This document shows positions 28,818 through 59,788 of a stretch of DNA of 64,000 nucleotides, in pieces. Positions within the stretch are counted from its first letter, which is position 1, and every line of letters begins with the position of its first letter. The translations under genes and the position numbers were made by a program. Location: contig JAUCBJ010006632.1 of assembly GCA_032718475.1 (NCBI GenBank), positions 1 to 64,000 on the forward strand, written 5' to 3'. The notes under the pieces are model-generated. The model saw only the letters and a list, made by a program, of their open reading frames with translations, was not told the DNA's origin and ran no database searches. The stretch is from Nemertoderma westbladi. Lineage: Eukaryota > Animalia > Xenacoelomorpha.

Positions 28818-30011
28818 TGTTCGCGCTTTCAGACCTTTGGCAGTTTAACCCGCCAAATTAGGATGTCTTCTAGATATTAAATGGCCTTTTAGCCTATGAC
28901 AAGTATTTGATTCACTACACTAGTCGAAACCAATCTGTGCGCGATCATTCACCCGCTGGTTATACCCGGGAGATTGGGTTCGACGGCTTAATCTTATTGC
29001 TATGTAAGCCTAATGTATTATTCGACTGACAGTATTATATAATCTCTGACAATATTATTCACCTTCGGGGAATATTAACAGTTCCTTTAGGACGTGGCGC
29101 TCTATCTATATAAACAGAGTTATGACTTAAACTACTCACAACGATATGGTTTAGTTATAATTCACATATATGGCGCATTCTTTAGGAAATGCTTCTTTAA
29201 CAGACTCACTCATATACAATGCTGCACAATACTGCACACTAATCTGCCGATCTTCACTGATTTTAGTCACATATAAAAGGAACACAGACTGACTCATGTA
29301 GGGTCTATCAAATAACATTCGATTCACTTCAAACCACTTTAACATAAGTCACAATCGTTTATCTGTAACCCTTCTCTCTTACCTTCGGTATATCAAGAAT
29401 ATTGGGTTTCGGGGTTATTTATCGTTATTCCAAATATAATAATTCATCAACCATATTATGAATAACTGACAGTAAATAGCAGTATAAAACAACAACTGAA
29501 CACTGATTGTTATGAGTTTGCAATGTTTCAGCAGTTTGTATGGTCAGATCAGGTCAGCAGTTAAAGGATATATGTCCTTATAATTAAACCTACTAGTGTT
29601 GGGCTAAAAAGCAGAAAAGCACAAAACACTACAAAGCCGTTCTTTCGTGGCTTTGAAACTCGTGACTACTACTCTATACGAGGATACCAACTACACTTAT
29701 TCCACGAAGCTCCCGTTCAACACAGAGAAAGAGCAGTGAGATAGGAAAAATTCAGTTCAGTAGCTCTGTGATAGGTCAAAATCAAGGCTAACTCAAATTC
29801 TATTGGGAGATACAAAAACAGGGCTATGACGCAACCTTCCTAGGCTGGTTGGCCGATTAAACAGAGCCCAGATACCTGCGTACAGCAAATCAGCCAATAA
29901 GCTGGTAGCTTGCACTATTTTAACTATAGATCCCTTTTTGAGTATTCTAGCGACCGGGGGGGAACTGGCCAGCAAAGCAAACGAACCAGTTATCCCACAA
30001 AAGCTTTTACA
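28818..30011 (-). mobile_element. 5' LTR of element B
   Basis: Direct repeat of 13402..14595. Confidence 0.97.
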
Positions 30012-37600: not shown

Positions 37601-38338
37601 GCCATTTTCAAAGACATTTGTATACAGAACTTACATTCCTCTGTTATACAAAGACCTCGAATCCCCATGGGTTATTCTATCGTGGAAGTTCAGACACTGG
37701 GTTCGCTTGAGGAGACAGCTACGCCTACCTCAGCTATGCAATTGGAAGACGAACCAATATGCTTAGAAACCGAGGAGATTCAGCCCACAGCGCCCCGGAG
37801 CAGAGACAACGACTACGTCTTGGAATGGTATCAAGGTCCACAATGTCTCACTGCGTACGATTATCAACATGCCAATTATGTTTCTAGGAAACGTTGCCGA
37901 TTGTGCGCATCTTGAGACCATTTCACCCCGGAGTACTCCAACGTGCCCTGCTCCTACTTCCATGAACAGCCTATGATGGAGATCTATTGTGCATATTGTA
38001 GACTCAATGACTTGCACATTTTCGCAGTCTGCCCCCAATTTATGACTCAATGCCATCATTGTCAGTTTAAAGGACATGCAAGTTTTGATTGCCCTTTCAA
38101 TCGCGATCTGGAAAGCGTAGATGAAATGATTACCCTACGCTATATCCGAGCCTGGGAAGCAAACACAGATTTACATTGTGAGTCACGTCATCGCTATTAC
38201 CCTGGACGTGCCTACGAAGGGGTTTATGCATTCCACCCGTACCTATTCGCGTCCGTGGAACAAAAATCTTGCACGCCGAGTTACGAACTAATGAAGCGTG
38301 TTGGCGAGAATATTTCGACCAAATTTGTTCATAAATAA
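34614..38338 (+). pseudogene. Element A extra 3' ORF: DEDDy 3'-5' exonuclease-like domain plus zinc knuckles (frameshifted)
   Basis: ExoI VTYDNEG (~36714), LP..V..MLFNKRILKIGSAVYGD, PFVDIQL, PLRPSLAIYTIFE. Then CRLC..H, CAYC..H..C and CHHCQFKGHASFDC. Colinear with C's 52272..55987. Confidence 0.75.
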
Positions 38339-39551: not shown

Positions 39552-41735
39552 TGTTACGGTATATGGCGCTGTATCCACAGTATTAGTCCATTATGCAGTA
39601 TGCAGTATTAGTCCATTATGCAGTATGCAGTATTAGTCCGTTATACTGTACGTAATATTAGTCCGTTGTGCAGTATAATTATTTAGATAAGGCGCAGTGT
39701 GGTGACATTTAGGTAAGGAAGTTAAAACGCCCATATATTTTGCATCCATTCATTTTGTATAGTATGTAGCCCTACCTACGTAATTTTGTATTAGGATATA
39801 TGTAGATAGTTCCAGGGTAGCGAGTTTACTCGGACCCTGGATTTTGTGCTTGCTGATATTAGTTTGATAGGGCTAGCATATAGGGACGCTGTCCTGGCCA
39901 TTCAGCAGCCAGAGACGTGATCCATTACCATATATGGTAATAATTTGAGGGCATAGGGCTACAATCCGGTCTCCTTATTGGATTAACTGCTTCCAGGTTG
40001 GTTTAATGCTAGCATGGACTGGAGAGCCAATGGGAGAGCGATTGAGTCACCTTATTGCATCACCCCATCGGGATCACCTATAAATTGGCGGTGTGCCGGT
40101 AGGGCCTTTTGTTGTTCATATGTTCATGCCTTATCACATGACACACCCCTGTTACAATTTACTTGCTGAGCTGTCTCTAATTTTGTATTAGGATATCGTA
40201 TTTTCTGCAATTTGCTAATTTTGATTAATTTCTTGGAATGATTTGCTAGTACGATTACTTTGCTTGTGTTTCTCAATAATTCCTTCGATTACTGCAAATT
40301 ACAATCGAACTATGATTTCTACCTTTGATTGATGGTTCTATGTGATTCTTTTCTGCGCAATAATCCCAAGGGATTCCTGAGACTGTCAGACTTTGTGATT
40401 TGCATGCGCCGCTACGGTAGCTATTAGCATCATGGAGGGCTAAGGTGCCAGTGGGCGGTGGGCGCATCGGGGGATTGAGCGACTAGGAGAGAGCGGAGGA
40501 TTCAAAGCGGGCAACGCTGGCCAGGGTCACCGTTGCCGCCGGGTATCTTGCACTGCGGCACGCAGACCGATCGCCGGTACAGTATCTAGGGGGCTGATGA
40601 TCCAGGTTTTGTCTCTATTTAGTATTAGGGGGGCAGGAATTGGGTTAGTTAGGAATCCTAGATGTACCCGGGAGAGGCCTGCGCGTCCGCGTATTACAAC
40701 GTTGAGTGTGGAGTACGAGTAGTGAATTGCACAATTGTAAACTGTGATTTCTAACGCTGATTGGTGTGTTATTGAAGTGTGCCTAAGATTACGAATGCTT
40801 AGATAGGCGCTCTTTTCCTTTGATTGATTTCTATTTCTTAGTTACAATAATTAGTTATTGATTAGGTCAAAGTAATACGGCAATTTAGGCTATTACTAGC
40901 GAAACCTGTTGCGTGATAAATTAGAATTACGTATTCTGGAACTCTTAGTAATTAGTACGCTGTTAAATATTTGTGACTGTAATTAATTAGTAAAAAATTA
41001 AGAATTAGTACGCAGCATAGCGGAGAGTAGCTAAGGTAATAATTAGTGTACTGTAAACTATTCACGCTGAGCGGTTATTTGCATTAGCGGGCAATCAGCT
41101 AGAACGCACTATTCGGTACGCACGATACGCTAGTAATTTTGCTGGCCTAAAGCCAGTCGCGGGCAGTTTTAGACTCGGAGTGGTATTATCCACGTAGAAA
41201 CAGATACTGTACCATTTTGATATTTTAAATATTCTCGCATTCACACATTACGTTAGGGAACCTCCAGTATTCGCGATTAGAAAGACGTAGGTAATAGCGT
41301 GCTTTAATAGTGATAGAATTAGGCGTAAGAATACTCTGAGTGCAAGGCCTCTCGCACTCGTCTTAAGTAAACTTAGGGAGCCGACTCGGGTTTATTGTTT
41401 TGGTTATTCCTGCGTGGCTCATAGATTCGAACAGTTAGCTCTCTATCGAGCAATCGGTAGAGAAAGGAACAAGCGATTTTGCAGGAGTTGTGTAAATTTA
41501 GTAAAATATATTAGCGGACGGCAGATTAGCGCCATCTAACGGTAAGTAGCGGTTTGTATTTAGCAACCCTTACAATTTAGTAATATCACGCTCCTGAGCC
41601 CCTTTACTTAACAGTAGAGCAGTCTTTGTGTCTTATTGGTTAGACGAGAACTTATTAGGTTGGCAGAAGGATATTAACGGGTATTGGTCTGTTCAACAGT
41701 TCTGCTGTTAGTATAGAGGTCGCGGTTGTTTATCA
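39552..41735 (+). mobile_element. 5' LTR of element C (2184 bp)
   Basis: TGTTAC...TTATCA, repeated at 57608..59788. Contains ~25-bp tandem units CAGTATTAGTCCATTATGCAGTATG at ~39578-39678. Confidence 0.97.
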
Positions 41736-43064
41736 GTAATACGCGTTTTTGTTTTGCTGTACTGCGTACAGTAAATACGAATTAGATTACTGTATTAGGT
41801 ACTGTACTGCGTACGGTGAGACAGAGAGTATTCTTAGGCTGATTAGTTTAGATTACTGATACTTCGTATCAGTAATACGCGCATATTGCTTTGCTGTACT
41901 GCGTATAGTAAGGCAGATAGTGTATTCTTAGGCTGATAGTAGTATCACAGTATTAAGTAATAAGTTGGAGCACGTGATCGTCTGCTGTAGGCTATAGGCT
42001 AGCGTACAGTAAGACATTGAGTTTATTCTATTAGGTTGTTAGTTTAGATTACTGTATTCACTGGCTGCGTACAATAGTACAGTAGTACATTAGGCTGATT
42101 GTTGTTACTGCGGACGGTAGAAGGACATTTGTTTGCCGTACCACACACAGTATCATTAGGCTGTTAGGTTGGTGTACTGTTTTACTTACTGTGCTGCATA
42201 CAGTGAATGTACGGTAGTGCGTTTTGCTAATTGCGAATACAGCAGTTCCTTAGGCCTTAGGGCAAACAGTAATTAGTAAGTTTTTTGAAAATTTTAGCTA
42301 GGTTTGCGAGAATTCAGTTTTCGGTCAAAATTATTTTGTAAAATTCTAGAGTTTTGTACCGGTATGTTAGGTAACCGCTTAGTTATTTTATACCATCTGG
42401 AGATACATGGCAAGACGGAACTTCTGAGTTTGGGGTTTGTGTGGGTCTGCGGGTTCGGTTTGCAATCAGCGAAGGGCCTGAATCTTTGGACGCGGACGTG
42501 GAATCTCACAGCAAACAAGGTTGGTTGTTCTGTTGGCACCAGTGTGTTTGTGGAAGCAGTAAAAAATTACCGGTTGTTTAACTGCGAAGCTGAACTCAAT
42601 TTATTAGTTAGGATATTTAGGTTTAGCCGGCCATGGTTTTTTGAATCGCTCAAGTTAGAGAGAGAGTTAGAGAGAGTCGCAACCCGAAGATGTAGCCACG
42701 CGCTAGTGGATACATATAATATTTGAAATTAAAATTACGTTGATTGGAGCTATATATATAAAATTAGAAATATTCGGGTGGCAAGTTTATTTTGAATATT
42801 TTGTATTAGATTCAAAGTTATTTTGTGCTATACCGGTATTTAATACTATATAGTAGCTATATAATAATATTTTTTGTTTAAATATTGTGTTAGTATTTGC
42901 TATAACTATATACCCCATTAAATTCACAATATTGCATTGCGAATTTATTTGACATTTGGACCAACTGATTATTTGACAAATAATTTGACCGTATTTCGGT
43001 TAAATTATAATTATATCTCGAACTTTTGCGAGATTTTTGCCAGAAGGCAAATATTATTTAGACT

Positions 43065-46000
43065 ATGAGTGTCTCAGACAAAGAGGCACTAGAGGACAGC
43101 TATGAGACGGCGGCTGGACCGCCGACTGACGATAGCGTAAATATTACTGTTGATGACAATGCCGACTATGACGACGCAGCGAGCGACGCTGACGTAAGTG
43201 AACAGGAGGACGAGACAGTGACTAGTGAGGAAGAACAGCAGCCTCAGGTAATAGTATTAGGATCCCCTACCGCTACTGATAGGAAGGACTGTATGGCAGC
43301 CCGGACAGAGGTGAGTGATAGGGAGGGTAGTGTAGTAGAAGCGAGAGCCCGGAGCCCGGTTTCCAGACCTGTGGGTATGGTAAGTGCCGTGGTCCCGACG
43401 GCTGTTAGGAGTACCTGTAGTTCCCGAAATAATCCTTCAAGTCCACCAAGTGTGAGTCAGGTAAGCGAGAGAGAACTTGATATCGCGATAAAGAAGAAAC
43501 TTCGCGCGCATGCCGGACATATAACTCGGACGGCGGACAAGGTAAGGAAGATGTTAGCTGACCCAGCGAACATCGGGAGGGTAGAGTTAGTAGAGATTAG
43601 AAGAGGATATAACTCAGCGTTATTCAAGCAGACGGAGGAGCTTGCAGTCCTAGCGAAGAAGGCAGTAGAGTCTCAGTCGAGCGACGTAGCAACGAGGATT
43701 TACGACAGGGTTTTAGCAGCCTTGTTAGAGCACCGCGAGTTATCGGAGCGATTCCGACGAGTTAGGACGGAGAACTGGCTGCTATGGGCATCACAAACGC
43801 AGGCGACTCAGGTGAGTGACGCAGAGTTAAGAGACTTAGTGGAGCGGGAAGAGATCCAAGATAAGGAAGAGCGCCGTTATCAGAGGGAAGTTACTAGCTG
43901 GCTGATGCAGAATGGAGTGGTGGTACCAGGCCAGGTGCTACCGACGACGGAGAACATTCAACAGAGGACGTTGACTCCACCCGACGACGCATCTAGAGAC
44001 AGCGGCGATTCCCAGGTTAGTCACGCGCGAGGTAAGGTAATATGTGCTAGATCCCTTGTTTCTCACAACTCGGCGGAGGAGAGAAGACGCCGACTAGACG
44101 AACAGCAGGCGGAAGTTTTGCGTGCACAGGAAGCACGGAAGGAAGCCGAGCGGGAACGGGAGCGCACACGTAAGTTGGACGCAGAGTTACGAGAGTTGGA
44201 AGAGATAAGTAAGCGCGAGCGAGCGGAACGCGAGCAAAGGGAATGTGAACTCCAAGCCGAGCGCGAGCGCGAGGAACTCGAATGCGAACAGAGAGAACGC
44301 GAACTCCAACTCGAATGCGAACGGGAAGCGAAGAAACGCGAACTCCAACTTGAATGCGAACGGGAAGCGAAGAAACGCGAACTCCAACTCGAACGCGAAC
44401 AGGAAGCGAAGAAACGCGAACTCCAAGCCGAACGCGAGCGCAAGAAACTCGATCGTGAACAGAAGGAGCGCGAGCTTCAACTCGAACGCGGACGCAAGGA
44501 ACGCGAACTCGAGATCGAGAAAAGAAGACGCGCATTGTATGAAGAAAAGGCGCGAGTGGAAGAAGAGAGCGCAGCGAGACGAGCGAGGGAAGAAGAAGAG
44601 CGTAAACTGGCGCAGTTGGAAAGTGCGAGATTAAGTTTAGAGAGCGAAGAACGGACTAGGAAGGCGAACGAAATCGCCGAGAAGGGGATGCGAATGCTCG
44701 AAGAATGTGGGGCGAGTGTGGGGACAGAGTTGCGAGAACTGTTCGCACTGCAGAAGGCCGAACAGGAAGCGAGAACTCCGACTATACGCGAGTCAACGAC
44801 GACCAGAATTCCTATACCCGGTCCAGCTATTACGAGTACACGGATCGTTAAACCGTTCTCTACATATCGCACGCCAGTTGGTATTAGTGCTTCACCTATC
44901 GCCCAGGATCTACGTCATCGGAACGCCGCACCACTGTATACCGAACGTGACAACGGAGAATTTAGAGAAGAAACTCCAACGGGACGAGTATTTGGCGAAC
45001 CGAACCCGCGGGTTTGGAATACGCGGACGGAGCGCCGACCCAGTTCGACGGAGAACTTCCGGGTTAAACCGGAAGAGGGATCATATGAGAGACAGCGGAT
45101 TACTCAGATAGAGCCGACTATACAACAGAACCCTAGCCAGGAATTTATTACGAGGGATGAGTTAAGTGCTAGTTTAGCGCAAGCTATATCGCCGCACATC
45201 CAACCTATAACGGACATGCTTAGCAACCTACGGTTAAAGGAAGCAGCCCAGGTAAGAAGTAATTCTAATCCTAGCAGGCCTGAGTTAGATAAAGTCCAGC
45301 CTAGTCAACGAGTACGCATATCGGAGGAGACTATACCACATAGACCTCAGGTAAGGACGCCTGTCCCGAATATCCATAATCCCAATTTCGAAAATTCGGC
45401 AGAAAGATTTATTGAGGAAGCTTGGGTCAGGGCCTCGGCGCGCAAACCATCGCGAGCGCTAAGGACTGACACTGAGTCAAGCGATGAAGAGGAAGAAATG
45501 AGATGTCAGAAGTCCCGAAACTATAAGGAAAGAAGGACGGACGCGGAGCAGGTAAGTTGGAACCACCGGGAAAGGACCAGACTTAACAACACTGCGGAAC
45601 TAAACCATTTGTTAACCCGGAACGACGCAACCCTTAGGGACATAGGTAAGTTTGCTGCTAGGCAAGGACTGCCGACGCAGCAACCCCAGAAGTTTATGGG
45701 TAACCATAAACATTGGAGGACCTTCAAAACCTATGTCGACGAGCAGCTAACCAACAGCACCTTTACTCCCAACGAAAAGTTCAACTATTTGCTTCAGATG
45801 CTCCATCGAGAACCTAGAGCCATTGCTGATAATTTCGTCGGCAATGAAAGAGCATTTGAGTTAGCGATGAAGATGCTTAGTGACATTTACGGGAATAAAA
45901 CCAAGATGGCGCAGTCGATAGTAGAAGACTTGGGTAAGGGCGGAAGGATTACAACTCCGTTAGAGCTGTTGAACTTAGCAAACGCTATTTCGAACGCATT

Positions 46001-49000
46001 GGACATCTTGAGGACGGTGAATCTACCTCATCATGGTGATCACGCCGAAGTTTTGAAAAGCGTAATAAGACGTTTAAACATGCGTTACAGACAGAAATGG
46101 CGCAAATTAGAGAATAAGTTGGAGGGCCAAGGTAAGGTGTTGACACTTCAGCATATTCATGACATGATAGCCACAGACGCAGTAGCAGAGATGAAATCAA
46201 ACTTCTCAGAAGAGAATATGAGGGAGTCTAAACCTGTTACCGGTAAGTCTATGGTAAGTTTTGACGATGACAGGACCACTGTGACATTTAACTCAGTAGA
46301 CAGATATAATTCGAATACCCCAGCCTTTAGATCAGACTCGCGAGTATGGTCAGGTGAGCGGTTAGATAGACCTAGGTTAAAGCAACAGGAGTTGCCGGAT
46401 GGATTTGTAGGTTGCCAATACTGTTTACTAAAGGAGGTAAGATCTGACGACCATAAGTTAGATAGTTGCAGACGGTTCAAAGAATTAAATTCGGAACAGA
46501 GAAGAGTTCAAGTGCGGACGTTGGACACCTGTTGGGCATGTCTTGCGCCAGGTCATGTACGGCGGCAGTGCCCGAACAGCAAGGACGGATGCATGGAATG
46601 CGGCAGACTACATCACAAGTTGCTACATGCGGATTTCCACACCCCAACGGACCGTTACTTACAGCGAAATCCTCAAAGGAAGGGGAGCAAAGAACCCGTA
46701 TCGATAAGGAGGAATACGTACACTGGCATCCAGGACGATGGTTACCAACCAGGTTCGTCGGACGAGGATGGCGAGTCGAGCGCGAGAGAAGTGACCTGCC
46801 AAGGTTTCACCGCGGATAGTTCATCGACCAGCGCGCGGACGTATTTATCATCGGCCACGTCGGAAATATTTAGCGTGATTCCGGTGAAACTCACTGGCGA
46901 TAAGGGATCGAAACGAATATATGTGATGCTGGACACTGCGTCCACATTATCGTATATCGACGAGGAAGTGGCGAGAGCCGTTTCTAGCTTCCAGGACGCC
47001 GAGGAGATCCAAATAGAGTTGAAGTCTATGCATGGGGTAGGAGACCTCAAGGTACACAGAATTTCGGTGGAACTAGATTCCCTACTTCCGAGAGACCAAC
47101 ACACTCGACAAGAACGGAAAGCTTTGCCATTGGACGGATTTAAGTGTCTAGCTATGAAGGGATTCGGCAGGCAGTTAGGTAAGGTGCCGCCGATGAGTCC
47201 CATAGCACAGGAGTATTTTGACAAGCTCAGGATACCCAGACACCAGGTAGGTTATAGGAATGTTTCTATGTTGATTGGTGCAGAACAGCTGATCGCACAC
47301 CAGATATGGGAAACGAGACCAGCTGAGCCGCATGTCAATGGACCACATGCCCATAGGACCATACTAGGTTGGTATACACGAGTACCCATGTCTTATGAGT
47401 TTACAGGTGGCGACAAGCCAATGGACAGATACGATGAATTACAGCCTATAATTCAACCACCGTTAGTAGAACCACCAGACATAGACGAGTTTAGGAGAAC
47501 CTGTATTGACCACTATAGTGACTTTAGCGAGTCGGACGAGGAGTTGATTCCCGATAATGTTAGGTTGTCGGAACCACTTCACAATGACCGGACAGATAGT
47601 GAACCCGAGGACTACTGTTATCAGACCCGTGGGTCTGGTTCAGCGGCCCACGCTACCTATTTGACTAACGTTTTGACTTATACAGACATAGTGGAGGGTC
47701 AAGTGGCTAAATATCGAGACCTAGACATTTTCCAATACAGTGAGGAGGAATTACAGAAGGAATTGATACGCCAGGACCTCGAGACAGGAGCCAGAACCGT
47801 CGAATGGCTGGACAGGGACGCAATGGAACCCGGTGGATATGACCTAGCCATGTCTACTGATGAGAAGCGGTCGCTGGAGATGATGGAAGATACCATACGT
47901 CTACTACCGACTGGACATTTTGAAGTTGGAATGTTGTGGCGTCGACAACCACCTAAGTTGGAGAACAACTACAGCTTAGCCTTGAAAAGATTAAACGGAG
48001 TAAGGGCTCGGTTGTTGAGGAATCCAGGCATTAGGGAGAAGTATTGCGCCCAGATCAACAACTATTTCGCCAAGGGATTTGCTGGGAAGGTAGAGGACCC
48101 TGACTTAGTGACAGACCAGACTTAGCTTCCACACCACTATGTGACTCACCCTGACAAGCCAGACAAAGTCCGAGTAGTCAACGACTGCGCAGCAGTCTAT
48201 AGAGGTATGTCCCTGAATTCAGAGTTGATGGATGGTCCCAACCTGAATAACTATTTGATTGGAATACTGTTGCGTTTTAGACAGCGGCGATTCGCATTTA
48301 CTTGTGACATCGAGGCGATGTTCCACCAGGTAAGAGCCTGTAAGGCAGACCAGGATAGCCTTCGATTTCTCTGGTTTGAGAATGAAGACTTATCCGGCCC
48401 AGTGGTTACATACCAAATGTACGTTAGGATATTTGGCGCCCGCGATAGTCCGAATGGCACGCTGTTCGTTCTAAAGAAAACGGCAACAGCCCAGATTGGT
48501 AAGTACCCAGTAGAAGTAATCGAGTCCATCTTGAGAAACTTCTATATGGACGACGGATTGGTGTCCAAGGACACAGCGGAACAAGCCATAGAAGTGGCTC
48601 ACGGCCTGCAAGAGTGCTTGGCTACAGGGGGTTTTCCTCTAACCAAGTTCACTACTAACTCGGAGGCCCTATTAGAATCGTTCCCGGTAAAAGATCGCGG
48701 GAGCGGAGACATTGAATTGGGGGTAGAACCAATCCCCATGGCGCGAGTACTGGGACTCGCTTGGAATCCGAACTCGGATAAGTTCCAGGTAAGAGTTAGA
48801 TTTGAGCCCAGTAGCCCAGACAAAGTTTTGACAAAGAGAATTTGCTTATCGACATTAAGTAGACTATTTGACCCGATGAACTTTATCAGTCCGGTTATAT
48901 TACAGGCACGAGCGTGCATGAGGAAAATTTGGTTGTCCGACTTAGAGTGGGACGAACCAATATCTCCTATACATGCAAAGCAGTGGAGGGAGTGGGAAGC

Positions 49001-51507
49001 CGAGTTGCATCTATTGAAAAATATAGATGTACCCCGTTCCTACTTTCCGAATCAGCTGGTATTTCCAGCTGATTTAGAACTGCATTTATTTAGTGACCGG
49101 CTTTGGTATGGTAGCCTACCTTCGCCGAGAGGTAAGTCAGGACAAATTTGAGACGGCCTTTGTGACTTCTAGATCAAAGACAATGCCGGTCAAATATATG
49201 ACTGTCCCTCGTGCAGAGTTACAGGCGGCTGTAGTTTCGGTCGAGGTAAGTAAGCAAATAACTGAGGAGTTAGACACGACATTGACCTTATTCTATTGGA
49301 CGGACGCATCCTTGGTGTTAGTATACATTGCGGCCGACAATATTGCACTAAAGACATTTGTGGCCAATAGACGCGCTCAGATCGTTGATTTTTCGACGAA
49401 GGAACAATGGAGACATTGTCCGGGAGTGTTGAACCCGGCCGACATAACTTCGAGAGGTGCAATGCCGGCGGAATTCTGTCGGGAAGAGTCGCAGGAGTTT
49501 TGGTTGCATGGACCTGATTTTCTAACGAGGACACAGGAACATTGGCCAGAGCGACTAAAGATAGTGACCAATCCGATGCCTGAAGATGCAGAAGTCAAGG
49601 TGGAGAAAGTCTCTAAGTCGAAGTCTAAAGCCAAACTTAAGTCATTGGAGCGGCCTGAAGAGTCATTGGAGCGGCCTGAAGAATCATTGGAGCGGCCCGG
49701 AGACCTGTCAGACCAACAGACTTACGTGACTACTAGGTCCGGAAGGGTAAGTTATGACGTAAAACCACCCTTACAGACTAAACCAGAGTCACAGTTGGTA
49801 AGTGACGGACAGAAAATGACCGACACAATGGAGTCTTTGGTTTCCAAACCTGCGGGTTTGGATTCGAAACTTCCATTAGTTAGCGGACAACCGTCGCTGG
49901 CATTAGAGTCATGCAGTATTTATGACAAATTACTAAATTCGTCTGCCTCTTGGCTGACAATTTGTAAAAGAACTGCGTGGTTAAGCCGATACGTTTCGTA
50001 CCTTTGTTTAAAACATTCGAAACATTTGAGAGAACCATTGAGCACCAATAGTGAGCGAATTCAGAAATTGAAACAACCTCTGACAGAGGATGAGATTGAT
50101 CAAGCGGAATTAAAGCATTTGAAGCATTATCAAATGTGTGCCTTCCCGAAAGAATTCCATCTATTATCGGCTCATCGACCAGTTCTCTATAAACCCCTTA
50201 GAAAATGGAGTCCATTAATCCATAAGGGTTTAATTTGTCATAGATCGAGAATCCAGACTGTCGACATAAACTCACAGTTTAGGTTCCCAGTGATAATCCC
50301 TAGTCACCCAATAGAATTGCAAAGAGCGATTCTATGGGATATACACAAGAGGTTGCATCACGCGGGAAAGTTACACTGTCTGTCGGCAGCGAGACAGCGA
50401 TTCATTCTATTGCAGCCAAGCAGGGCAGTAGGCACTATGTACGACGCCTGTCTGGTTTGCAAGAGAGTGAACGCCAGAGTATTGGAACAGGAGATGGCTG
50501 AACTCCCGGAAGCGAGAGTGCAGGCATATGACCCACCCTTTACGAATACAGGGGTGGACTGTTTTGGTCCGATTGAAGCAAAGAGTGGACGGCTGACCCA
50601 CAAGCGATGGGGTCTGCTACTGACATGTATGGCCAGTAGAGCCATACACATCGAGCGTGTGGCAGACATGTCGACCAAATCTCTGCTCCTGGCCTTAAAG
50701 AGATTTATGGCCAGGAGAGGACTAGTAAAGGCGTTCTACTCTGACAAGGGTACAAACTTTGTCGGAGGGAATAGCGAGTTGAACGCGGCTCATAAAGCAG
50801 CACAGAATAAGGAAATTTCTGCAGCACTTTTGCCGCAACGAGTAGAATGGAGATTCAATACTCCAGAAAGTCCTTGGAGAGGAGGAAGTTGGGAGCGTTT
50901 GGTTCGCTCTGTGAAGCAGGCCATTGCCAAAACATTGCCTGTGAACAAACAACTTACCGACGACGAACTGGTCACAGCTTTTATTGAAATCGAGCATACC
51001 CTAAACTCGAGGCCGATAGCTATGTTGCCAGACGGTGTTGCATTAACGCCGAATCATTTGCTAATGCAGAGTCCAGCATTTCTTGTGCCGGCATCAGAAC
51101 CCATTAGTGCCGACCTATATAGTCGTAAGAGCTGGAAAGTAACACAGTTTGTGGCGTACACATTCTGGGAATATTGGCGGGAATACTATCTTCCCACCAT
51201 ATCCACCAGAACAAAGTGGTACAAAACGGTTCGGAGTCTCCAAAGGGGAGATTACGTGTTGATAACCGAACCCATTGTCAAGAGAAAGTATTGGGAGACG
51301 GGAGTGATCTTGCACACACACCCAGACGTGCAAAACATAGTGCGCACAGTCACTGTGAAAATTAGGTGCAAGTGTCCGCACCCAAAAAAGTGTAAAACTA
51401 ATGGTTTACACACCTTGGACCGACCGGTCCAAGATATTGTGTTATTAGAGGAGACACGTATCGAGACGGGAGATTATAATTTGTCTCCTGCCTCAAAACT
51501 GAATTAG
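43065..51507 (+). pseudogene. Element C gag-pol polyprotein
   Basis: Coiled-coil Gag, triple knuckle, MLDTAS, FYMDD, HCPGVLNPAD, GVDCFGP, SDKGTNF, WRGGSWER. One in-frame stop (48123-48125) and a frameshift in the RNase H LHLFSD motif (~49095). Confidence 0.95.
44210..44520 (+). repeat. Coding tandem repeats (ERELQLECEREAKK-like, 42-bp units) in C Gag
   Basis: Repeated GAACTCCAACTCGAATGCGAACGGGAAGCGAAGAAACGC. A further 21-bp x3 repeat (SLERPEE) lies at ~49641-49698. Confidence 0.9.
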
Positions 51508-52271
51508 TGTTGGACGCAACTCACTTCGTATGCATTCCTCGTATGCAAATACAAGGAAATGCATAGGAGCGGGGTTGTGGTGATTTGCGTTGAGTTTTGT
51601 CTGGTGGGTATCAAAACAAAATTTTATTTCAAAAATTTTGGAAAAAATTAGAAAATTTTAAAAATTAGAAGTGAACCCAAGACAATTCCAGACGCTGTGT
51701 ATAGACGCGTTTTAGAATTCGTCTATAGATAAACAGTAATTTGAAAAGTCGTGAAGCCTGGAAAATAGCATTTAGAAACCATGGTGACGGCTATATTACG
51801 TAGGAGTGTAAATTGAGTTTAGCAACTTCCACAGATTGGTGCCAACAGTGCAACTAAGGTGCTAAAGGTTAGTAGCACCAGAGGGGTGCACGGACCCCAC
51901 TCAGTAGTTTGCAGGATGTGTGATGTTCGATTATCAAACCTGTGGGTTTGGTATAGTCGAGTATTGTGGCTATAGTCCTTTCTAACTACTGTAGTTTAGT
52001 ACGAGTAATGGGAGTAGTTTGGGCATCAAAAAGTGAGTTGGTCACGGCCAGTTTATCTCCAAAGTTTTTGCGCTATGCATGGGAATAGGTTAGAGGATAG
52101 TTAGTTAGGAAGAGACGGGATCTAGAGAGTCGAACCTGAACTGCTGGAAGGCGGGGGGGGGGGGTTCGGGAGGTCTGTCCTTCGGCGACATCTAACTGAT
52201 TTACCCACAGTGTAGTTGGTTACGTAACGGCACTTATTGGGATATATATATATGTATATACGCGTAACATA

Positions 52272-55200
52272 ATGGAGAGGGATATTAGAGCGCAACCGCG
52301 CAGAGGATTTACTGCCAGAGAGGAGGCGGAGCTACCATTCGCGCGACCAGGATGTAAAGACTCTAACGTTTACTACCATGGGCGGTCCGTGATGGAGCTG
52401 AACGGGAAGTATAAACCAAGTTATGATAAAGAATTACGGAGAGAAAGAATGAGAGCGTTGGGGGACCGGATGGAAGTCTTGCGGAGAGAGTATCGCACGC
52501 GGTATCCCTACGACTTTGCTTTGGACGTGTGCGACATTAGCGCAGATCCGGACGAGGAAATCGCACGACTATACCATATGAATATGTATTTACGACATGA
52601 GGAGCCTCTACCTGCAGTCCGAGACCAGTTCGACGGAATGCACCTGTATCGGAGGACTCGAGGCGAGGATCAGGAGACGCCGAAAGTCTTCAGCGTATAC
52701 AAGCTCTTCTACAAGTGTGGTGAATGCATGAATAAACAGGACGTGGCGATTCCCGACCGATTAGACGAGCAACATCCGGAACCGATATTAACGCGATGTC
52801 CAGCTCACCAATTCCTTAGATACAACGAGGGAGGTTACCTGATGAGCAACCCGATGATCAGTATCGACTTCAGTGGAAAGCGACCTCCGAGACCCATTAC
52901 GCCGACCGTTACGACATTAGATCCGTATACGGAGATTAAACCCTGTTCGACACCCAGTTTGATAGAGACGGCAGCGGCCATTTTGCTGTACCGATCCTAC
53001 AAGGATCTAGAGGCGCGGCGCGAAGCGGCGCGGGACTCGGGTACCAAACCCGTGGGTTTGGAGCTCTCGAGTCCCTGGACTGCGTTTACTTCACCTCACC
53101 GAGTGAGAAGCCTCACACCTGAGCATCAGGACGACATAGACGCGTTGCGGCAGGAGGAGCGAGTGGCGAAGGCGAAAGAGTTATCAGGATAGCTACTTAT
53201 TAACAGGATAGCGGAGTATAATAAGACCGCGGATAGACATCAAGAGGAGACGAGGAGAGTGACCGGATTTGTTCCACAGGTCGTATCTCAACCCGGACCG
53301 GTGTATTATTCCGACGGCACCGAACCTGCGATATTAGTAGATCATCCGGAGTCGCGAGAAGCGATACGATGAAGATGGTAAGAATGGCGGACCATTGGAA
53401 CGTTGACTGTCTACGGGAAGTTTTATGCGCGAAGTTCTTGCGTGATGTCCCAATGCAGATCACAGATTACGACACTTTGGACAAGATTGGAGCTCCGGGG
53501 AAGGAGAGTAAGTTATTCGGATGGTTGGATAAGTACATCAAGGTATGGGTCGCGGTGGCTACATTCCCAGATGACGAGGAAGTAGACCAGACGTGGCTGA
53601 GGAGGAAGGGTTCTTATACCCGATATGATGACCACAAGGCGATCGAGCGCATGTGGACCCCATCAGATGAGATTCAGCGTCAGTGGAGGAAAACGGAGGA
53701 ATCACTGCAGGATTGGAGAGTGATGTTCTACGACAATGAAGGAGGGTCCCATCAGGAATGCTTGACTAGCAAGTGTATTCAAATTCGTGCGGCCGATGGT
53801 GTGACTCATGTGTTTATGCGTGTGAGGGCGGATCGAGAGAGACCGGAGCCCATCATAACGACACAATATCGGAAAGGGAAGGATCCTAGGGAACAGATTT
53901 TGGAGGTATGCAGGCGAGGAGGTATGCACGGAGCGGAGCGTATCGACGCCAGGATGTTACCAAAGAAGGTTAGAGAGGCTATTCTCAACCAAGATTACGT
54001 CAAGGTGGGATCGGGAGTCCAGAGCGATTTGGAGAGCGACTTCAACGCCATGACTGATCTGGAAGATAGATTGCCGAGACCGTTTGTCGACACCAAGCTA
54101 TTGTTGCTATGGGCACAGGATATTGGAATTTATAGGGAGTATCCCAACTCTGCCAAGACTGGTATGGGCTTTATAGCACACTTGTTGTATAATTGGGACT
54201 TTAAGTTGAAGACGCAAAAGAAGTACGAGGAGGCGTATGGCGAATACAACACGCCACCGGGAGCGGAGTTCAAATCCCACTTCAAGCGGCAAGCGTTAGT
54301 GTATTGGAACATTTGCGCGCCACCCCGTGCGTCGCTACAATATTATTTGGTGCTTGAGTCGAACACGGTGACTTGTTTATTAGCGGATATCGTTGCGCGA
54401 GTTTTGAAGCGTCATCCATTGGTATTCGGAGGAGATCAATACGTTCGCTCGAAAGGGGGAATCCAATCCGACGTGATGAAGCGTTTCTTAACCCCGTTCT
54501 TCAACCAATCGTTAGAGAATACGTCGATGGTGAGGAGAGGATTAGCGATATTCGAAGGAGTATATCGACAGAACATCGGAGATTTGGGAGACCGACCGTC
54601 GATGGAATATCCGACGCCAGAAGCTTTGGAGAAGTGGTTCGGGAATCAAACCCGCGGGTTTGGTACTCCCTTCCACTCGGAGGCTGATAGACCTGTTAAG
54701 GAGGGCTGGCCGGAAACGTTAGTAGAGGTGTTCGGAGTAGATCTTCCGGTGGAGAAGACATATCCGAAACGAACGCGGGAGGAAATATTGGAGATAGAGG
54801 ACAAGGGCGAGGATGTTTACTTTGTTCCGGATCGACAACCGTTGACCGGAGAGGACGACATCGTATTAGACATTGGGAAGGAAGGAAGTGCGAAACCGAT
54901 TGGAGACCTCATATACGAGAGGGCCTGGTTTCCACAAGCGCGTAGGTGCAAATTGTGCGGCAGCACAAGGCACAATCTAAAGTCGTGCGACGCGGTAATA
55001 GAGGCGGCGCATAAGGTCTGTCGTTGGTGCAATGAGACCGACCATTCGTTTCACACGTGCACCGTCTTCATTTCTCAATGTGGATATTGTGGAGTAAAAG
55101 GACACCGTAGCGCGAGATGTCAGCTGCGAGATGATTCCTTTCAAAACCATAGCGCTAACCTACTTCGGGTGATGTTAGATAAGTGGGAGAGTGTGGCGGA

Positions 55201-55987
55201 TTACCATATTCAAGCGCAGATGCGTTGGTTACCATTTAAAGCGGGATATGGGTTTTGGGCGGTAGACCCATCGCATGTTGCGTACGAGCCATATCTACAA
55301 TCGCTACCACAATATCAGGAGCTCATCCTAACTGCTCAAGACCTTCCACAGAACACTGGAGTTATCGTAGTCCGAGAATACTTCAGACAATTGAACATGG
55401 ACAATAAGTACACATGGAACTTCGTTGCTATTTGCGATCGCATCACGAAGGGTGTATTTACGGAGACTAGAAAAGTGGTACGCGCGCGAGGTGATTGGAG
55501 GATGGCGGCTATACAATACCGCAACGAATTCTTGTTGACTCATGTGCCAGTGGGTTCATTGACCGCCGAGAGGATACAGGAACAAAGGATCGCAGCGACC
55601 ACAGCGACGACCGCTGGAGCTCAAGGCTCGCGGAAAGAACCAGGAGGAGGGGTCCAAGACAAGCGTCAAGTCAAGGACGACCACTACCACTCCATTATAG
55701 AAGCTCAACGGTTGCAGCGCAAGGCGCAGGGGGCGTCTGAGAAAGCGCGTGTGCAACTGCAGAAGGAAGAGTTGGCGGAAGCGACCACGGGAGCGCGACA
55801 ATTGGGACGAGGCCGAGGGAGAAGTTCAAGCCGAGAATCTGTCGGGGCTCAGGGAACGTCGTCGCCGGTTCCGGGGAGTGACGCCTCACGGACGCCGTCA
55901 ACGGAGTCGACTAGAGGTAGATTAGTGTATCTGGGAAGGGGACGAAAGAGAGGAGCGAGCCCAAAGAACCCAGGAGCGGGTCGATAA
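52272..55987 (+). CDS. Element C extra 3' ORF: WRN/EXD-type DEDDy 3'-5' exonuclease domain plus three CCHC zinc knuckles
   Basis: VMFYDNEG, CIQI, LPKKVREAILNQDYVKVGSGVQSD, FVDTK, TGMGFIAHLLYNWDFK, YW..PP..SLQYYLVLE. Knuckles CKLC..H..C, CRWC..H..C, CGYC..H..C. 52272..53192 reads on past one TAG and joins 53369..55987 by a frameshift. Confidence 0.8.
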
Positions 55988-57600
55988 TACATTATGGCAC
56001 AGGGCGACAGACTCTAGATATATACATCATCGTCGCTCTGATGTATATTGTAGCATTTGAAAATTTTCGACTAGACTCGTACCTAAAGAGGTGAGGTCTC
56101 TATAGGGGTGCGAGTAACAGGCGGCGGCGGACTCGTGAGGGTCTGGGGGCACGTTAAACACTAGTCTAAGTGCAAGGGAGATACTGATGGCCCTCGTGTC
56201 TAGCGAACCATGAATTGCCATGGTGCCGTGGTTCCGTCTAGTCGGCATGTTGCCGTACTGCCAGTCCTGTACACAGTAGGGGTGGTGGCATGGCGTGATT
56301 TGTGGTGTCATGTGGTGTGAACTGTGGTTTGTATGTGGGCGATCAGTGGCAGTTGCTTGGGGCTCGGATGGGTTCCTTTGGCCATCAGCTGTTCCGTTTT
56401 TTTGATACTATATGTTATTGTCTCCATGTTCAGCTGATTGGTTTTTGGGATTTGTTTGGGCCTTTGAGTTTTCTGTTGCTGTGGGTACGTGAGTACACGT
56501 GATTGTGTGTATGGCCACTGCGAGTGAGTGTGGGAAACCTTGCCGGTTGGACAAGACGCCGCTGGTATTAGTAGGACCATACTTTACTGCGCCCCAGCAT
56601 ACTTTGTGCACACAAGTTATTTTACCTTGTCGGTAAAATAAAGTACTCTCGACTTTCTCATTCTCTCTCAAGTCGATACAACTAGTCCCTCCCGATTTTG
56701 ACACCGATTTTGTCTTTCACGATTATGTCCTCTGTGTGTGCATGGTATGTGTCCGATTTTGTGTTTACCGTAGTGTACTTGATATTGTGAACATCTGTTG
56801 AGTACACGTGTATAGGACTGGTAAGTGGTTACTTGTTCCTAGCTTTCGAGCTAGTCAGTATTGTTTGTGGAACTTACTTCCCCTCAATACTGCCGGCGAG
56901 GCGGGTGAAAACGTGTCAATATTCCATGTTGGGTAGCACAAGCCCACTTGGGACAAGACCGTCGGTTAGGCCCAAGGGCGACCTTGGTGCTTGATCGCTA
57001 TCGACTGGTCCACCCGCCGGTTGACTCTCTGAGTTGGCTCAATGTACAGTCAGGCCACAGTAAGTTGACAGTAGCCGCCCATCTGGCTACACGTTCGACG
57101 AGCTGTGCCGGTGTGATCGGGGAATTGAAAATTGAACCCGGGAAGCATCGGGCCATCCCCCGGCCCGGTCTGATAATAACATCAGTCAGACTGGCCCCAG
57201 GGGTGGTGGAAACACGTCCGCCTCGTGGGTGCGCCTCGGGGAGGAGCCCAGAAGGACGTAAGCGATACACTAGTTGAGTTATTTGAATTTATATTATGAA
57301 AGAGGCGAAGGAAGTGATTGGGGAGACAAACCTGCAGGTTTGGCTTACTCCTTTCACTTGCCCTAGCAAAATTTTTATATTTGATTTTGTATGTAGTAAT
57401 CATTATGTAGTAAGAATGAACGAGAAACAATATTTTGTAAATTTAATTTGTATGTAATTCATTATGCAATATCTATGGCAATATTTGTAAATAGTAGAAT
57501 TATTATGTTATTTAGATTGGTTGGAAGAAATTTATTTTGTTTTGTATACATCACCTTATACTCTTCTACAATTGGAGGGAAACATTATATGATTTCCCTT

Positions 57601-57607
57601 GGAGCGG
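57601..57607 (+). promoter_or_regulatory. Polypurine tract of element C
   Basis: GGAGCGG immediately before the 3' LTR. Confidence 0.85.
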
Positions 57608-59788
57608 TGTTACGGTATATGGCGCTGTATCCACAGTATTAGTCCATTATGCAGTATGCAGTATTAGTCCATTATGCAGTATGCAGTATTAGTCCGTTAT
57701 ACTGTACGTAATATTAGTCCGTTGTGCAGTATAATTATTTAGATAAGGCGCAGTGTGGTGACATTTAGGTAAGGAAGTTAAAACGCCCATATATTTTGCA
57801 TCCATTCATTTTGTATAGTATGTAGCCCTACCTACGTAATTTTGTATTAGGATATATGTAGATAGTTCCAGGGTTGCGAGTTTACTCGGACCCTGGATTT
57901 TGTGCTTGCTGATATTAGTTTGATAGGGCTAGCATATAGGGACGCTGTCCTGGCCATTCAGCAGCCAGAGACGTGATCCATTACCATATATGGTAATAAT
58001 TTGAGGGCATAGGGCTACAATCCGGTCTCCTTATTGGATTAACTGCTTCCAGGTTGGTTTAATGCTAGCATGGACTGGAGAGCCAATGGGAGAGCGATTG
58101 AGTCACCTTATTGCATCACCCCATCGGGATCACCTATAAATTGGCGGTGTGCCGGTAGGGCCTTTTGTTGTTCATATGTTCATGCCTTATCACATGACAC
58201 ACCCCTGTTACAATTTACTTGCTGAGCTGTCTCTAATTTTGTATTAGGATATCGTATTTTCTGCAATTTGCTAATTTTGATTAATTTCTTGGAATGATTT
58301 GCTAGTACGATTACTTTGCTTGTGTTTCTCAATAATTCCTTCGATTACTGCAAATTACAATCGAACTATGATTTCTACCTTTGATTGATGGTTCTATGTG
58401 ATTCTTTTCTGCGCAATAATCCCAAGGGATTCCTGAGACTGTCAGACTTTGTGATTTGCATGCGCCGCTACGGTAGCTATTAGCATCATGGAGGGCTAAG
58501 GTGCCAGTGGGCGGTGGGCGCATCGGGGGGTTGAGCGACTAGGAGAGAGCGGAGGATTCAAAGCGGGCAACGCTGGCCAGGGTCACCGTTGCGGGCGGGT
58601 ATCTTGCACTGCGGCACGCAGACCGATCGCCGGTACAGTATCTAGGGGGCTGATGATCCAGGTTTTGTCTCTATTTAGTATTAGGGGGGCAGGAATTGGG
58701 TTAGTTAGGAATCCTAGATGTACCCGGGAGAGGCCTGCGCGTATTACAACGTTGAGTGTGGAGTACGAGTAGTGAATTGCACAATTGTAAACTGTGATTT
58801 CTAACGCTGATTGGTGTGTTATTGAAGTGTGCCTAAGATTACGAATGCTTAGATAGGCGCTCTTTTCCTTTGATTGATTTCTATTTCTTAGTTACAATAA
58901 TTAGTTATTGTTTAGGTCAAAGTAATACGGCAATTTAGGCTATTACTAGCGAAACCTGTTGCGTGATAAATTAGAATTACGTATTCTGGAACTCTTAGTA
59001 ATTAGTACGCTGTTAAATATTTGTGACTGTAATTAATTAGTAAAAAATTAAGAATTAGTACGCAGCATAGCGGAGAGTAGCTAAGGTAATAATTAGTGTA
59101 CTGTAAACTATTCACGCTGAGCGGTTATTTGCATTAGCGGGCAATCAGCTAGAACGCACTATTCGGTACGCACGATACGCTAGTAATTTTGCTGGCCTAA
59201 AGCCAGTCGCGGGCAGTTTTAGACTCGGAGTGGTATTATCCACGTAGAAACAGATACTGTACCATTTTGATATTTTAAATATTCTCGCATTCACACATTA
59301 CGTTAGGGAACCTCCAGTATTCGCGATTAGAAAGACGTAGGTAATAGCGTGCTTTAATAGTGATAGAATTAGGCGTAAGAATACTCTGAGTGCAAGGCCT
59401 CTCGCACTCGTCTTAAGTAAGCTTAGGGAGCCGACTCGGGTTTATTGTTTTGGTTATTCATGCGTGGCTCATAGATTCGAACAGTTAGCTCTCTATCGAG
59501 CAATCGGTAGAGAAAGGAACAAGCGATTTTGCAGGAGTTGTGTAAATTTAGTAAAATATATTAGCGGACGGCAGATTAGCGCCATCTAACGGTAAGTAGC
59601 GGTTTGTATTTAGCAACCCTTACAATTTAGTAATATCACGCTCCTGAGCCCCTTTACTTAACAGTAGAGCAGTCTTTGTGTCTGACGAGTGGTTAGACGA
59701 GAACTTATTAGGTTGGCAGAAGGATATTAACGGGTATTGGTCTGTTCAACAGTTCTGCTGTTAGTATAGAGGTCGCGGTTGTTTATCA
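57608..59788 (+). mobile_element. 3' LTR of element C (2181 bp)
   Basis: Direct repeat of 39552..41735 with a few substitutions and two small indels. Confidence 0.97.

What the first reader, a model, noticed from the sequence alone, without database searches (positions are those of the whole stretch)
52272..55987. Bel/Pao retrotransposon with a 3'-5' exonuclease + zinc-knuckle ORF in place of env
Seen: between the integrase stop (51507) and the PPT, element C has a ~1240-codon ORF (one stop, one frameshift). It carries ordered WRN/EXD2/Mut-7-like motifs (YDNEG; IQI; LP..V...I.....VKVGSGVQSD; FVD; GM..IA..L...FK; W..P...LQY), followed by three CCHC knuckles and an RG-rich tail. Known: Bel/Pao elements normally carry nothing or an env here. 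From memory, DEDDy ORFs were reported in bdelloid rotifer Gypsy-type LTR and Athena/Terminon retroelements, but I know no Bel/Pao case with this architecture. Inference: an RNA-binding exonuclease used for primer/RNA processing, proofreading or countering small-RNA silencing.
Basis: partly seen in the sequence, partly recalled or inferred. Interest (0 to 1): 0.9.

Follow-up and report, generated by a model that had tools for sequence, protein, structure and literature searches.

The report
Bel/Pao retrotransposons carrying an exonuclease gene
A retrovirus-like jumping gene, and two distantly related ones, carry an extra gene where an envelope gene usually sits; its protein is predicted to fold like a 3'-to-5' exonuclease joined to zinc fingers, and it likely trims RNA ends, probably to blunt the host's small-RNA defence or to shape the element's own primer.

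Summary
Confirmed. Element C (39552-59788, 20.2 kb, LTRs 99.2% alike) is a Bel/Pao retrotransposon with a ~1238-codon third ORF (52272-55987; one stop, one frameshift) and no transmembrane segment. Its middle part is a DnaQ-like DEDDy domain: Pfam misses it, but family profiles and a medium-confidence model both rank EXD2 first. ExoI D/E, ExoII D and ExoIII Y are present; the last Asp is Glu. Three canonical CCHC knuckles follow. The ORF is not a one-off: a second Bel/Pao family in the window has it (26% identity), an unrelated metagenome contig has it directly behind a Bel/Pao-type integrase end with intact DEDDy, and three further protein clusters share it. Among family copies 21 of 29 displayed substitutions are synonymous. 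Sister element B moved after losing it, so it is not needed in cis. New here: all three window elements lack a tRNA primer site and carry a 10-11 nt site complementary to their own LTR, a Tf1-like self-priming signature. Best guess: a trans-acting RNA 3'-end exonuclease used against host silencing; primer trimming is the boldest rival. Activity is untested. Precedent: DEDDy ORF3s in rotifer gypsy-like and Athena elements.

The parts
39552..41735 (+). 5' LTR of element C (2184 bp, TG...CA); 5-bp TSD at 39547-39551
40688..40697 (+). LTR-internal 10-mer, exact reverse complement of the bases right after the LTR: candidate self-primer
   Evidence: (16 of 3000 shuffles reach it)
41736..41745 (+). 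Primer-binding position; no tRNA-type TGG start; pairs with 40688-40697
41748..41781 (+). Predicted hairpin just behind the primer-binding position (a similar hairpin is predicted in A and B)
43065..48125 (+). gag-protease region (DUF1759, weak zf-CCHC), ends in a stop
48126..49151 (+). RT (YMDD) and start of RNase H (Peptidase_A17)
49078..51507 (+). rest of RNase H and integrase (Integrase_H2C2, DUF5641); frame change from the previous piece
52192..52210 (+). Branch-point-like CTAAC, pyrimidine-rich run and CAG: predicted 3' splice site 61 nt before the ORF3 ATG
   Evidence: sequence; consensus recalled; inference
52272..55987 (+). ORF3, ~1238 codons, broken by a stop (53190-53192) and a frameshift (near 53369-53373); no transmembrane segment (best 19-residue hydropathy 1.34)
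52272..53192 (+). N-terminal region of ORF3, no known family; a short stretch is shared with element A (36% over 70 aa, E 8e-7)
53657..54410 (+). DnaQ-like DEDDy exonuclease domain, unbroken in this copy
53732..53740 (+). ExoI D-x-E, on a predicted strand
54026..54028 (+). ExoII Asp (aligns with the WRN GIEGD / EXD2 GCSED Asp)
54344..54358 (+). ExoIII Y-x3-E (Glu where DEDDy enzymes have Asp), on a low-confidence predicted helix
54947..55120 (+). three CX2CX4HX4C zinc knuckles
55121..55330 (+). conserved segment after the knuckles, shared with element A, P0001 and P0003
55780..55984 (+). low-complexity RG/S-rich tail
57600..57607 (+). short purine-rich tract before the 3' LTR; its last 8 bases are the same in element B
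57608..59788 (+). 3' LTR (2181 bp); TSD at 59789-59793
34614..38338 (+). Homologous ORF3 of element A (another Bel/Pao family), with several breaks; same domain order, ExoIII also Y-x3-E
5215..5225 (+). Element A LTR-internal 11-mer complementary to 5908-5918, the bases after its 5' LTR
   Evidence: 4 of 3000 shuffles
14830..16005 (-). Decayed ORF3 remnant of element B (sister of A): 9 stops in the aligned stretches, ends before the exonuclease domain
29561..29571 (-). Element B LTR-internal 11-mer complementary to 28807-28817, the bases after its 5' LTR
   Evidence: 3 of 3000 shuffles

Best explanation
ORF3 is an accessory gene kept by several Bel/Pao families that encodes a predicted DEDDy-fold domain followed by CCHC zinc knuckles, and it likely works in trans as an RNA 3'-to-5' exonuclease that probably shortens or destroys the host's silencing small RNAs or the 3' tails that mark element RNA. 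Shown: position after integrase, domain order, homology across families, synonymous bias, loss from a copy that still moved. Predicted: the fold and the active-site positions. Inferred: expression from a spliced message, as env is; knuckles gripping single-stranded RNA and feeding it to the active site, as in trypanosome TbRND; catalysis despite Glu at ExoIII; the target. My odds: DnaQ-like fold 0.95, active nuclease 0.6, counter-silencing as the main role 0.35-0.4.
For: Fold: family profiles hit EXD2 (E 2.4e-4 to 1.1e-3), mouse WRN (E 0.009-0.02) and TbRND. Model (pLDDT 52.8, pTM 0.56): the 6 Foldseek hits at E<=0.001 are all EXD2 chains; VIA-align top row EXD2, Z 9.0, rmsd 4.8 over 121 residues, and all 50 rows shown have titles I recognise as DnaQ-like nucleases or polymerases/complexes with that domain (recognition recalled). 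ExoI D-x-E and ExoII D are kept in 6 of 6 families aligned (C, A, L004, P0001, P0003, P0004). Lineage feature: element A; L004, 1 of 30 pattern loci, E 1.9e-26, 80 nt behind a DUF5641 integrase end at E 1.1e-21. Selection: 21 of 29 displayed substitutions in ORF3 are synonymous against 29% expected. Trans action: separate ORF with a 3'-splice-site-like sequence before it in C and L004; B's ORF3 is decayed and truncated while its LTRs differ at 2 of 1194 bases. Generic role: the same domain type was taken up by gypsy-like Juno/Vesta and by Athena elements (PMC5408684), which I recall prime differently. TbRND is a DEDD + CCHC enzyme whose fingers are needed for RNA trimming (PMC7797062).
Against: No activity, expression or substrate data. 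The ExoIII Asp is Glu in 3 of the 5 families where the motif can be read (C, A, P0001; Asp in L004, P0003), and the nearest folds include inactive or non-catalytic RNA binders (Exd1, Egalitarian; their inactivity is recalled). Pfam does not reach its cut-off for any family member (best E 0.011). The model is medium to low confidence, the ExoIII helix lies under pLDDT 50, and only 2 of 48161 chains reach Z 8. EXD2 and WRN also cut DNA (recalled), so RNA specificity rests on the knuckles. The substitution rows are the 40 best supported of 323, only 4 fall in the exonuclease domain itself, and they are not independent events. The splice site is a consensus match only; none was evident before A's ORF3. 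Nothing here ties ORF3 directly to small RNAs. PMC5408684 reports no clear departure from neutrality for the rotifer ORF3s.
Confidence: 0.4

Rival explanations
1. Primer maturation: these elements self-prime, and ORF3 would anneal an LTR-derived RNA to the primer-binding site with its knuckles and chew the unpaired 3' overhang back to the 10-11 bp duplex, leaving the 3'-OH at the LTR edge.
For: 3 of 3 window elements lack a tRNA-type site and have an exact 10-11 nt complement in their LTR, ending exactly at the LTR boundary (C 16, B 3, A 4 of 3000 shuffles; internal controls 3 of 2249 and 1 of 2019). The A and B sites lie at homologous LTR positions and differ at 5 of 11 bases, each matched on the other strand. 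The duplex forms in folds of C and B. DEDDy enzymes trim single-stranded tails and stall at duplexes (recalled; TbRND).
Against: Tf1 makes its self-primer with RNase H alone (PMC7175516), and C's RNase H D/E/D motifs look present (motifs recalled). B kept the signature after losing the exonuclease. Earlier unchecked notes report the same signature in Bel/Pao elements of at least 5 other genomes with no exonuclease mentioned. In A's fold the duplex has probability about 0 because a local helix competes, and all folds were started at the primer base, which favours closure. Transcript ends are unknown; L004 lacks its 5' end.
Confidence: 0.22
2. Pseudo-nuclease adaptor: the domain binds structured RNA without cutting, as Egalitarian, EXD1 or Maelstrom do, and ORF3 routes or shields the element's RNA, for example into the germ line.
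For: Asp-to-Glu at ExoIII in C, A and P0001; Egalitarian (Z 7.5) and Exd1 (Z 7.0) are among the top ten folds; knuckles and RG tail are RNA-binding parts; PMC5408684 itself points to EXD1/Maelstrom.
Against: ExoI D/E and ExoII D are invariant in 6 of 6 families at 22-31% identity, and L004 and P0003 keep the full DEDDy set; Glu keeps a carboxylate.
Confidence: 0.2
3. Proofreading or cDNA end-polishing for an unusually long genome, analogous to nidovirus ExoN.
For: C is 20,237 bp and B 16,610 bp against 4.2-10 kb given as usual for BEL/Pao (PMC3118150); polymerase proofreading domains share the fold.
Against: ORF3 is not fused to Pol and has no evident route to RT; B is long and moved without it; nearest folds are EXD2/RNase D-type rather than polymerase domains; L004's ORF3 is short and its element length is unknown.
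Confidence: 0.1
4. A captured host gene that is only a passenger, or a chance resemblance.
For: This copy and A are broken; deletion derivatives exist among family contigs (table 5); Pfam finds nothing.
Against: Synonymous bias; same position in three families with integrases about 30-35% identical; intronless; gag-pol of this copy is broken as often as ORF3 (two breaks each), as expected from decay after insertion; contigs from 4 of 4 runs differ in length from this copy at the frameshift.
Confidence: 0.04

Closest known systems
DEDDy ORF3 of bdelloid Juno and Vesta LTR retrotransposons and Athena/Terminon elements (Rodriguez et al. 2017, PMC5408684)
   Same: A DEDDy-type exonuclease ORF downstream of pol, in place of env; family-specific, gained and lost; activity not demonstrated.
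   Different: Those are gypsy-like and Penelope-like, not Bel/Pao; their motif is DEED, here DEDE or DEDD; no triple CCHC array is described there (0 occurrences of 'CCHC'); this ORF is ~1240 codons. Whether the domains share an origin was not testable (no rotifer sequences at hand).
Trypanosoma brucei RNase D, TbRND (PDB 7C42; PMC7797062)
   Same: DEDD exonuclease followed by CCHC fingers; top or near-top profile hit (E 1.1e-4) and a fold hit (Z 6.9).
   Different: TbRND is a 351-residue cellular guide-RNA trimmer with four fingers close behind the domain; here three knuckles lie ~190 residues downstream, with a long N-terminal region, inside a transposon. The domain itself is closer to EXD2, so the architecture may be convergent.
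EXD2 / WRN / Nibbler-Mut-7 / EXD1 / Egalitarian exonuclease domains
   Same: Same fold, ExoI and ExoII motifs and the LP...KVG.G...D stretch.
   Different: 10-15% identity in structure alignments; insertions after the third strand and before ExoIII; ExoIII Glu; no helicase, HRDC, HNH or membrane anchor.
env-bearing BEL/Pao elements (roo F-type env, mosquito Chuviridae-like glycoprotein; PMC13524379, PMC3118150)
   Same: Third ORF between integrase and 3' LTR, probably on a spliced message.
   Different: No transmembrane segment and no fusogen similarity; an enzyme-like, RNA-binding cargo.
Tf1/sushi self-primed reverse transcription (PMC7175516, PMC4600332, PMC6317226)
   Same: 10-11 nt right after the LTR complementary to an LTR-internal site; no tRNA site.
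   Different: Reported for gypsy-type Tf1/sushi/Tcn1 and copia-type Houba/Osr-1/TAR, not Bel/Pao, in the passages I saw; transcript start not mapped here; Tf1 needs no exonuclease.

Membership tests
Bel/Pao LTR retrotransposons | Bel/Pao-type Gag, RNase H and integrase domains in PR-RT-RH-IN order | tested here: met
   DUF1759, RVT_1 (weak), Peptidase_A17, Integrase_H2C2, DUF5641 in that order
Bel/Pao LTR retrotransposons | TG...CA LTRs and a short TSD | tested here: met
Bel/Pao LTR retrotransposons | Placement in a named clade by RT phylogeny | not tested
   no reference sequences were fetched
DnaQ-like DEDDy 3'-5' exonucleases | RNase H-like DnaQ fold | tested here: met
   medium-confidence model
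DnaQ-like DEDDy 3'-5' exonucleases | ExoI D-x-E and ExoII D | tested here: met
   aligned with EXD2 and WRN; kept in 6 of 6 families
DnaQ-like DEDDy 3'-5' exonucleases | ExoIII Y-x3-D | tested here: inconclusive
   Y-x3-E in C, A, P0001; Y-x3-D in L004, P0003; helix under pLDDT 50; the strict motif is not met in the window copy
DnaQ-like DEDDy 3'-5' exonucleases | Pfam DNA_pol_A_exo1 above cut-off | tested here: not met
   no hit for the window protein; homologues E 0.011-0.2, below the cut-off
DnaQ-like DEDDy 3'-5' exonucleases | Two-metal exonuclease activity | not testable with these tools
   needs an assay
Bdelloid retroelement DEDDy ORF pool | DEED motif and clustering with Juno/Vesta/Athena ORFs | tested here: inconclusive
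   third residue here is D, not E; clustering not run, sequences not at hand
env genes | Transmembrane anchor / fusogen homology | tested here: not met
   best 19-residue hydropathy 1.34; no env family in Pfam
Tf1-type self-primed elements | Bases after the LTR complementary to an LTR-internal site, no tRNA site | tested here: met
   3 of 3 elements
Tf1-type self-primed elements | The complementary site is the transcript's 5' end and RNase H releases the primer | not testable with these tools
   no usable RNA ends; no clear TATA/Inr at the expected distance

The most novel reading that the evidence does not exclude
A Bel/Pao lineage has replaced tRNA priming by self-priming and carries its own primer-maturation enzyme: ORF3 anneals an LTR-derived RNA to the primer site with its knuckles and trims it 3'-to-5' to the duplex edge, a priming route not described for any LTR element in what I could search.
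Probability: 0.2. Interest if true: 0.88.

Novelty: new variant of a known kind. Interest (0 to 1): 0.66.

Why it matters
Extra genes of Bel/Pao elements are generally taken to be env. A DEDDy nuclease with zinc knuckles held behind the integrase of three distant families, under purifying selection, shows that a third retroelement class has adopted this enzyme after gypsy-like and Penelope-like elements, so it likely gives a general advantage. If it attacks small RNAs it would be one of few transposon-encoded suppressors of animal small-RNA silencing; if it trims the self-primer it adds a new way to start reverse transcription. The nuclease domain is unbroken in this copy and has a natural DEDD counterpart (L004), so the 2017 open question of whether retrotransposon DEDDy ORFs are active can be tested directly.

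Tried and rejected
No genome is held for this window, so no count of full copies. Pfam scans of the ORF and its pieces: no exonuclease family. Single-sequence PDB search: only a rotavirus VP4 stretch (E 0.008), which faded to E 0.87 with the A+C profile and is rejected. Single-sequence fold: pLDDT 33, unusable. Word-index homologue searches: 0 of 4596, 0 of 7997, and only the query among 907 candidates; they are insensitive here, since one search missed members of its own alignment. The search for related loci: alignments too diverged; P0001 gave 0 of 182. 29 of 30 pattern loci were chance (next best E 0.03). The genomic context of P0001-P0006 could not be seen, so they are not counted as transposon-borne. 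Atlas: one answer, for P0001 (DNA_pol_A_exo1 + zf-CCHC cluster, score 0.86, a lead only). BFVD: no hit at E<=0.001, top row a viral 3'-5' exonuclease. No RNA holder is listed; run X4 is a guessed RNA run under another organism label with low depth and is used neither for expression nor for horizontal transfer. A finer table of variants in the exonuclease domain was not obtained. The stop-start overlap at 53369-53372 as programmed reinitiation is rejected: A is continuous there and other copies differ there. Whether the stop at 53190 is shared by other copies is unresolved (only 12 of 67 indel rows were shown). No tRNA genes in the window. Whether Glu can replace the ExoIII Asp could not be checked in print. 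Paper searches with the phrase 'bel pao' are blind to the spelling with a slash and carry no weight for absence.
Full report
The element. The finding lies in element C, 39552-59788 (20,237 bp), bounded by TG...CA LTRs of 2184 and 2181 bp (2169 identities, 9 mismatches, 9 gap positions) and a 5-bp target duplication. DUF1759, Peptidase_A17, Integrase_H2C2 and DUF5641 make it Bel/Pao. Its gag-pol has two breaks (stop at 48123-48125, frame change near 49100), so this copy is dead. Two more Bel/Pao elements lie in the window: A (+ strand, from 4807) and its sister B (- strand, 13402-30011), nested in A, about 82% alike to A and with LTRs that differ at 2 of 1194 bases. C's RT is 41-51% and its integrase 34-35% identical to A/B.

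The ORF. From the ATG at 52272 to the stop at 55987 there are about 1238 codons, with a stop at 53190-53192 and a frameshift near 53369-53373. There is no transmembrane segment (best hydropathy 1.34), so it is not env. A branch-point-like CTAAC, a pyrimidine-rich run and CAG end at 52210, 61 nt before the ATG; I read this as a splice acceptor by recalled consensus, untested.

The fold. Pfam finds nothing and a single-sequence model failed. A profile of C plus A found 3 proteins among 1.84 billion (E 1e-9 to 2e-4) and their clusters gave 3 more; P0001 and P0003 repeat the whole order of exonuclease-like domain, acidic linker, three knuckles and a conserved segment behind them. Profiles of this family hit EXD2 (E 2.4e-4 to 1.1e-3), WRN (E 0.009-0.02) and TbRND (E 1.1e-4, knuckles contributing), and place C's D-x-E and QSD Asp on the EXD2/WRN ExoI and ExoII residues. 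A model from the 7-row alignment reached pLDDT 52.8, pTM 0.56. The 6 Foldseek hits at E<=0.001 are all EXD2; among 48,161 chains VIA-align ranks EXD2 first (Z 9.0, rmsd 4.8, 121 residues), 2 chains reach Z 8, and all 50 rows shown are, by their titles, DnaQ-like nucleases or proteins holding that domain (my recognition). Each test is modest, but they agree. ExoI D/E and ExoII D are kept in 6 of 6 families; ExoIII is Y-x3-E in C, A and P0001, Y-x3-D in L004 and P0003, and unreadable in P0004. The ExoIII helix is modelled under pLDDT 50. Whether Glu supports catalysis there I could not check in print.

A lineage feature, under selection. Element A has the same ORF in the same place (26% over 484 aa, E 1e-34), N-terminal region included. 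A motif scan of metagenome contigs gave 30 loci; 1 of 30, L004, is a true homologue (E 1.9e-26, next 0.03). In L004 the ORF (585 aa stop to stop, intact DEDDy, one knuckle) starts about 80 nt after the end of a DUF5641 integrase (E 1.1e-21), again just behind an AG preceded by a T-rich run. Its integrase end is about 30% and its exonuclease 22% identical to C; its host is unknown. The context of P0001-P0006 could not be seen. Contigs of two runs from different studies cover 30 of 30 bins of 51400-57700, two other runs 23 and 26; contigs in 4 of 4 runs show a length difference from this copy at the frameshift (X3 6990 of 7326 depth; X1 only 490 of 5522, with loose ends there), so that break looks private to this copy, while the stop is unresolved. 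Some contigs skip parts of ORF3, so deletion derivatives exist. Of the 40 substitution rows shown (of 323), 9 lie outside ORF3 and 2 at the frameshift were dropped; 21 of the remaining 29 are synonymous against 29% expected, 9 of 10 in 53369-55400. The rows are the best supported, not a random sample, and only 4 lie in the exonuclease domain.

Dispensable in cis. B's ORF3 holds 9 stops in the stretches aligned to A, its longest open stretch is 116 aa, and it ends before the exonuclease domain, although B's LTRs are nearly identical. B therefore moved after the gene decayed; ORF3 is either optional or supplied in trans.

Unexpected: self-priming signature. None of the three elements has a tRNA-type TGG site after its 5' LTR. 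Instead the next 10 (C) or 11 (A, B) bases are the exact reverse complement of a site inside the same LTR, and the pairing ends at the LTR edge; 16, 4 and 3 of 3000 dinucleotide shuffles reach this, and 3 of 2249 and 1 of 2019 internal control positions. The A and B sites are in register in an LTR alignment and differ at 5 of 11 bases, each matched on the partner strand. Folds started at the site form the duplex in C (10 of 10 pairs at P>=0.9) and B (9 of 11) but not in A (0 of 11). This is the Tf1 signature (PMC7175516, PMC4600332; passages).

Mechanism. Shown: a separate, selected, losable third gene with DEDDy-like and knuckle domains. Inferred: a spliced message, an RNA substrate held by the knuckles as in TbRND (PMC7797062, passages), and action in trans. 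Because unrelated retroelements took up the same domain (PMC5408684, passages and one fifth of the text) and a cheater copy moved without it, I favour a general role against host RNA silencing (0.4) over primer trimming (0.22), a non-cutting adaptor (0.2), proofreading (0.1) and a passenger (0.04). None is tested.

Novelty. DEDDy ORF3s are in print for rotifer Juno, Vesta and Athena elements. For Bel/Pao I found none: whole-word searches gave 0 papers with Pao + retrotransposon + DEDDy and 6 with five of BEL, Pao, retrotransposon, exonuclease, ORF3, envelope, none on this by title or abstract (listing only); 'exonuclease' does not occur in the main text of PMC3118150, PMC8905726 or PMC13524379 (passages). 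Self-priming was tied only to gypsy- and copia-type groups in the passages seen (PMC6317226, PMC3601003, PMC6934838, PMC5443660). PMC6431247 (passages) names DEDDy only for Terminons. Searches with the phrase 'bel pao' were blind, one search returned mostly coronavirus papers, no supplements were read, and Repbase, GyDB and subscription journals were not searchable, so an earlier annotation cannot be excluded. Verdict: real, a new variant of a known kind, interest 0.66.

Noticed in passing
window 40688-40697 / 41736-41745; 5215-5225 / 5908-5918; 29561-29571 / 28807-28817 (-): Self-priming signature in all three Bel/Pao elements, with compensatory differences between A and B and a predicted hairpin just behind each site.
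   Followed up: yes
window 41867-41900: A second internal copy of C's LTR-end plus primer-site sequence; it pairs over 12 bases with the 3' LTR version of the site, whereas the 5' LTR version carries a short duplication there.
   Followed up: partly
window 4807-38338 and 13402-30011: Element B is nested in opposite orientation inside the RT of its sister family member A; B has an extra ~0.84 kb AT-rich stretch (24360-25196) in gag.
   Followed up: partly
window 38365-39473 (-) and 2025-3212 (-): Gag-like fragments of other LTR elements: 2025-3212 has weak Retrotrans_gag, knuckle and protease hits; 38365-39473 has no Pfam hit, cuts A's ORF3 and flanks element C.
   Followed up: no
window 52272-53650 and 34614-36600: The N-terminal ~450 codons of ORF3 match no known family; only a short stretch is shared between C and A, and L004 lacks the region.
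   Followed up: partly
window 39552-41735: LTR of 2.18 kb with no AATAAA or ATTAAA; B's LTR has none either. Long for Bel/Pao (0.2-1.2 kb in PMC3118150).
   Followed up: partly
window 44188-44522 and 9329-9523: Tandem repeats encoding long E/R/K/A-rich coiled-coil stretches in the Gag of C and of A.
   Followed up: no
window 52252-52274: A short out-of-frame upstream ORF in a TA microsatellite whose stop overlaps the ORF3 ATG.
   Followed up: no
window 55988-57607: 1.6 kb non-coding GT-rich stretch between ORF3 and the 3' LTR; family contigs show a recurrent ~1.2 kb deletion in it (56078/56080 to 57265).
   Followed up: no
P0001, P0003, P0004: Unnamed proteins with the same exonuclease-plus-knuckle layout on contigs of 2-9 kb; whether they sit in retrotransposons is unknown.
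   Followed up: partly
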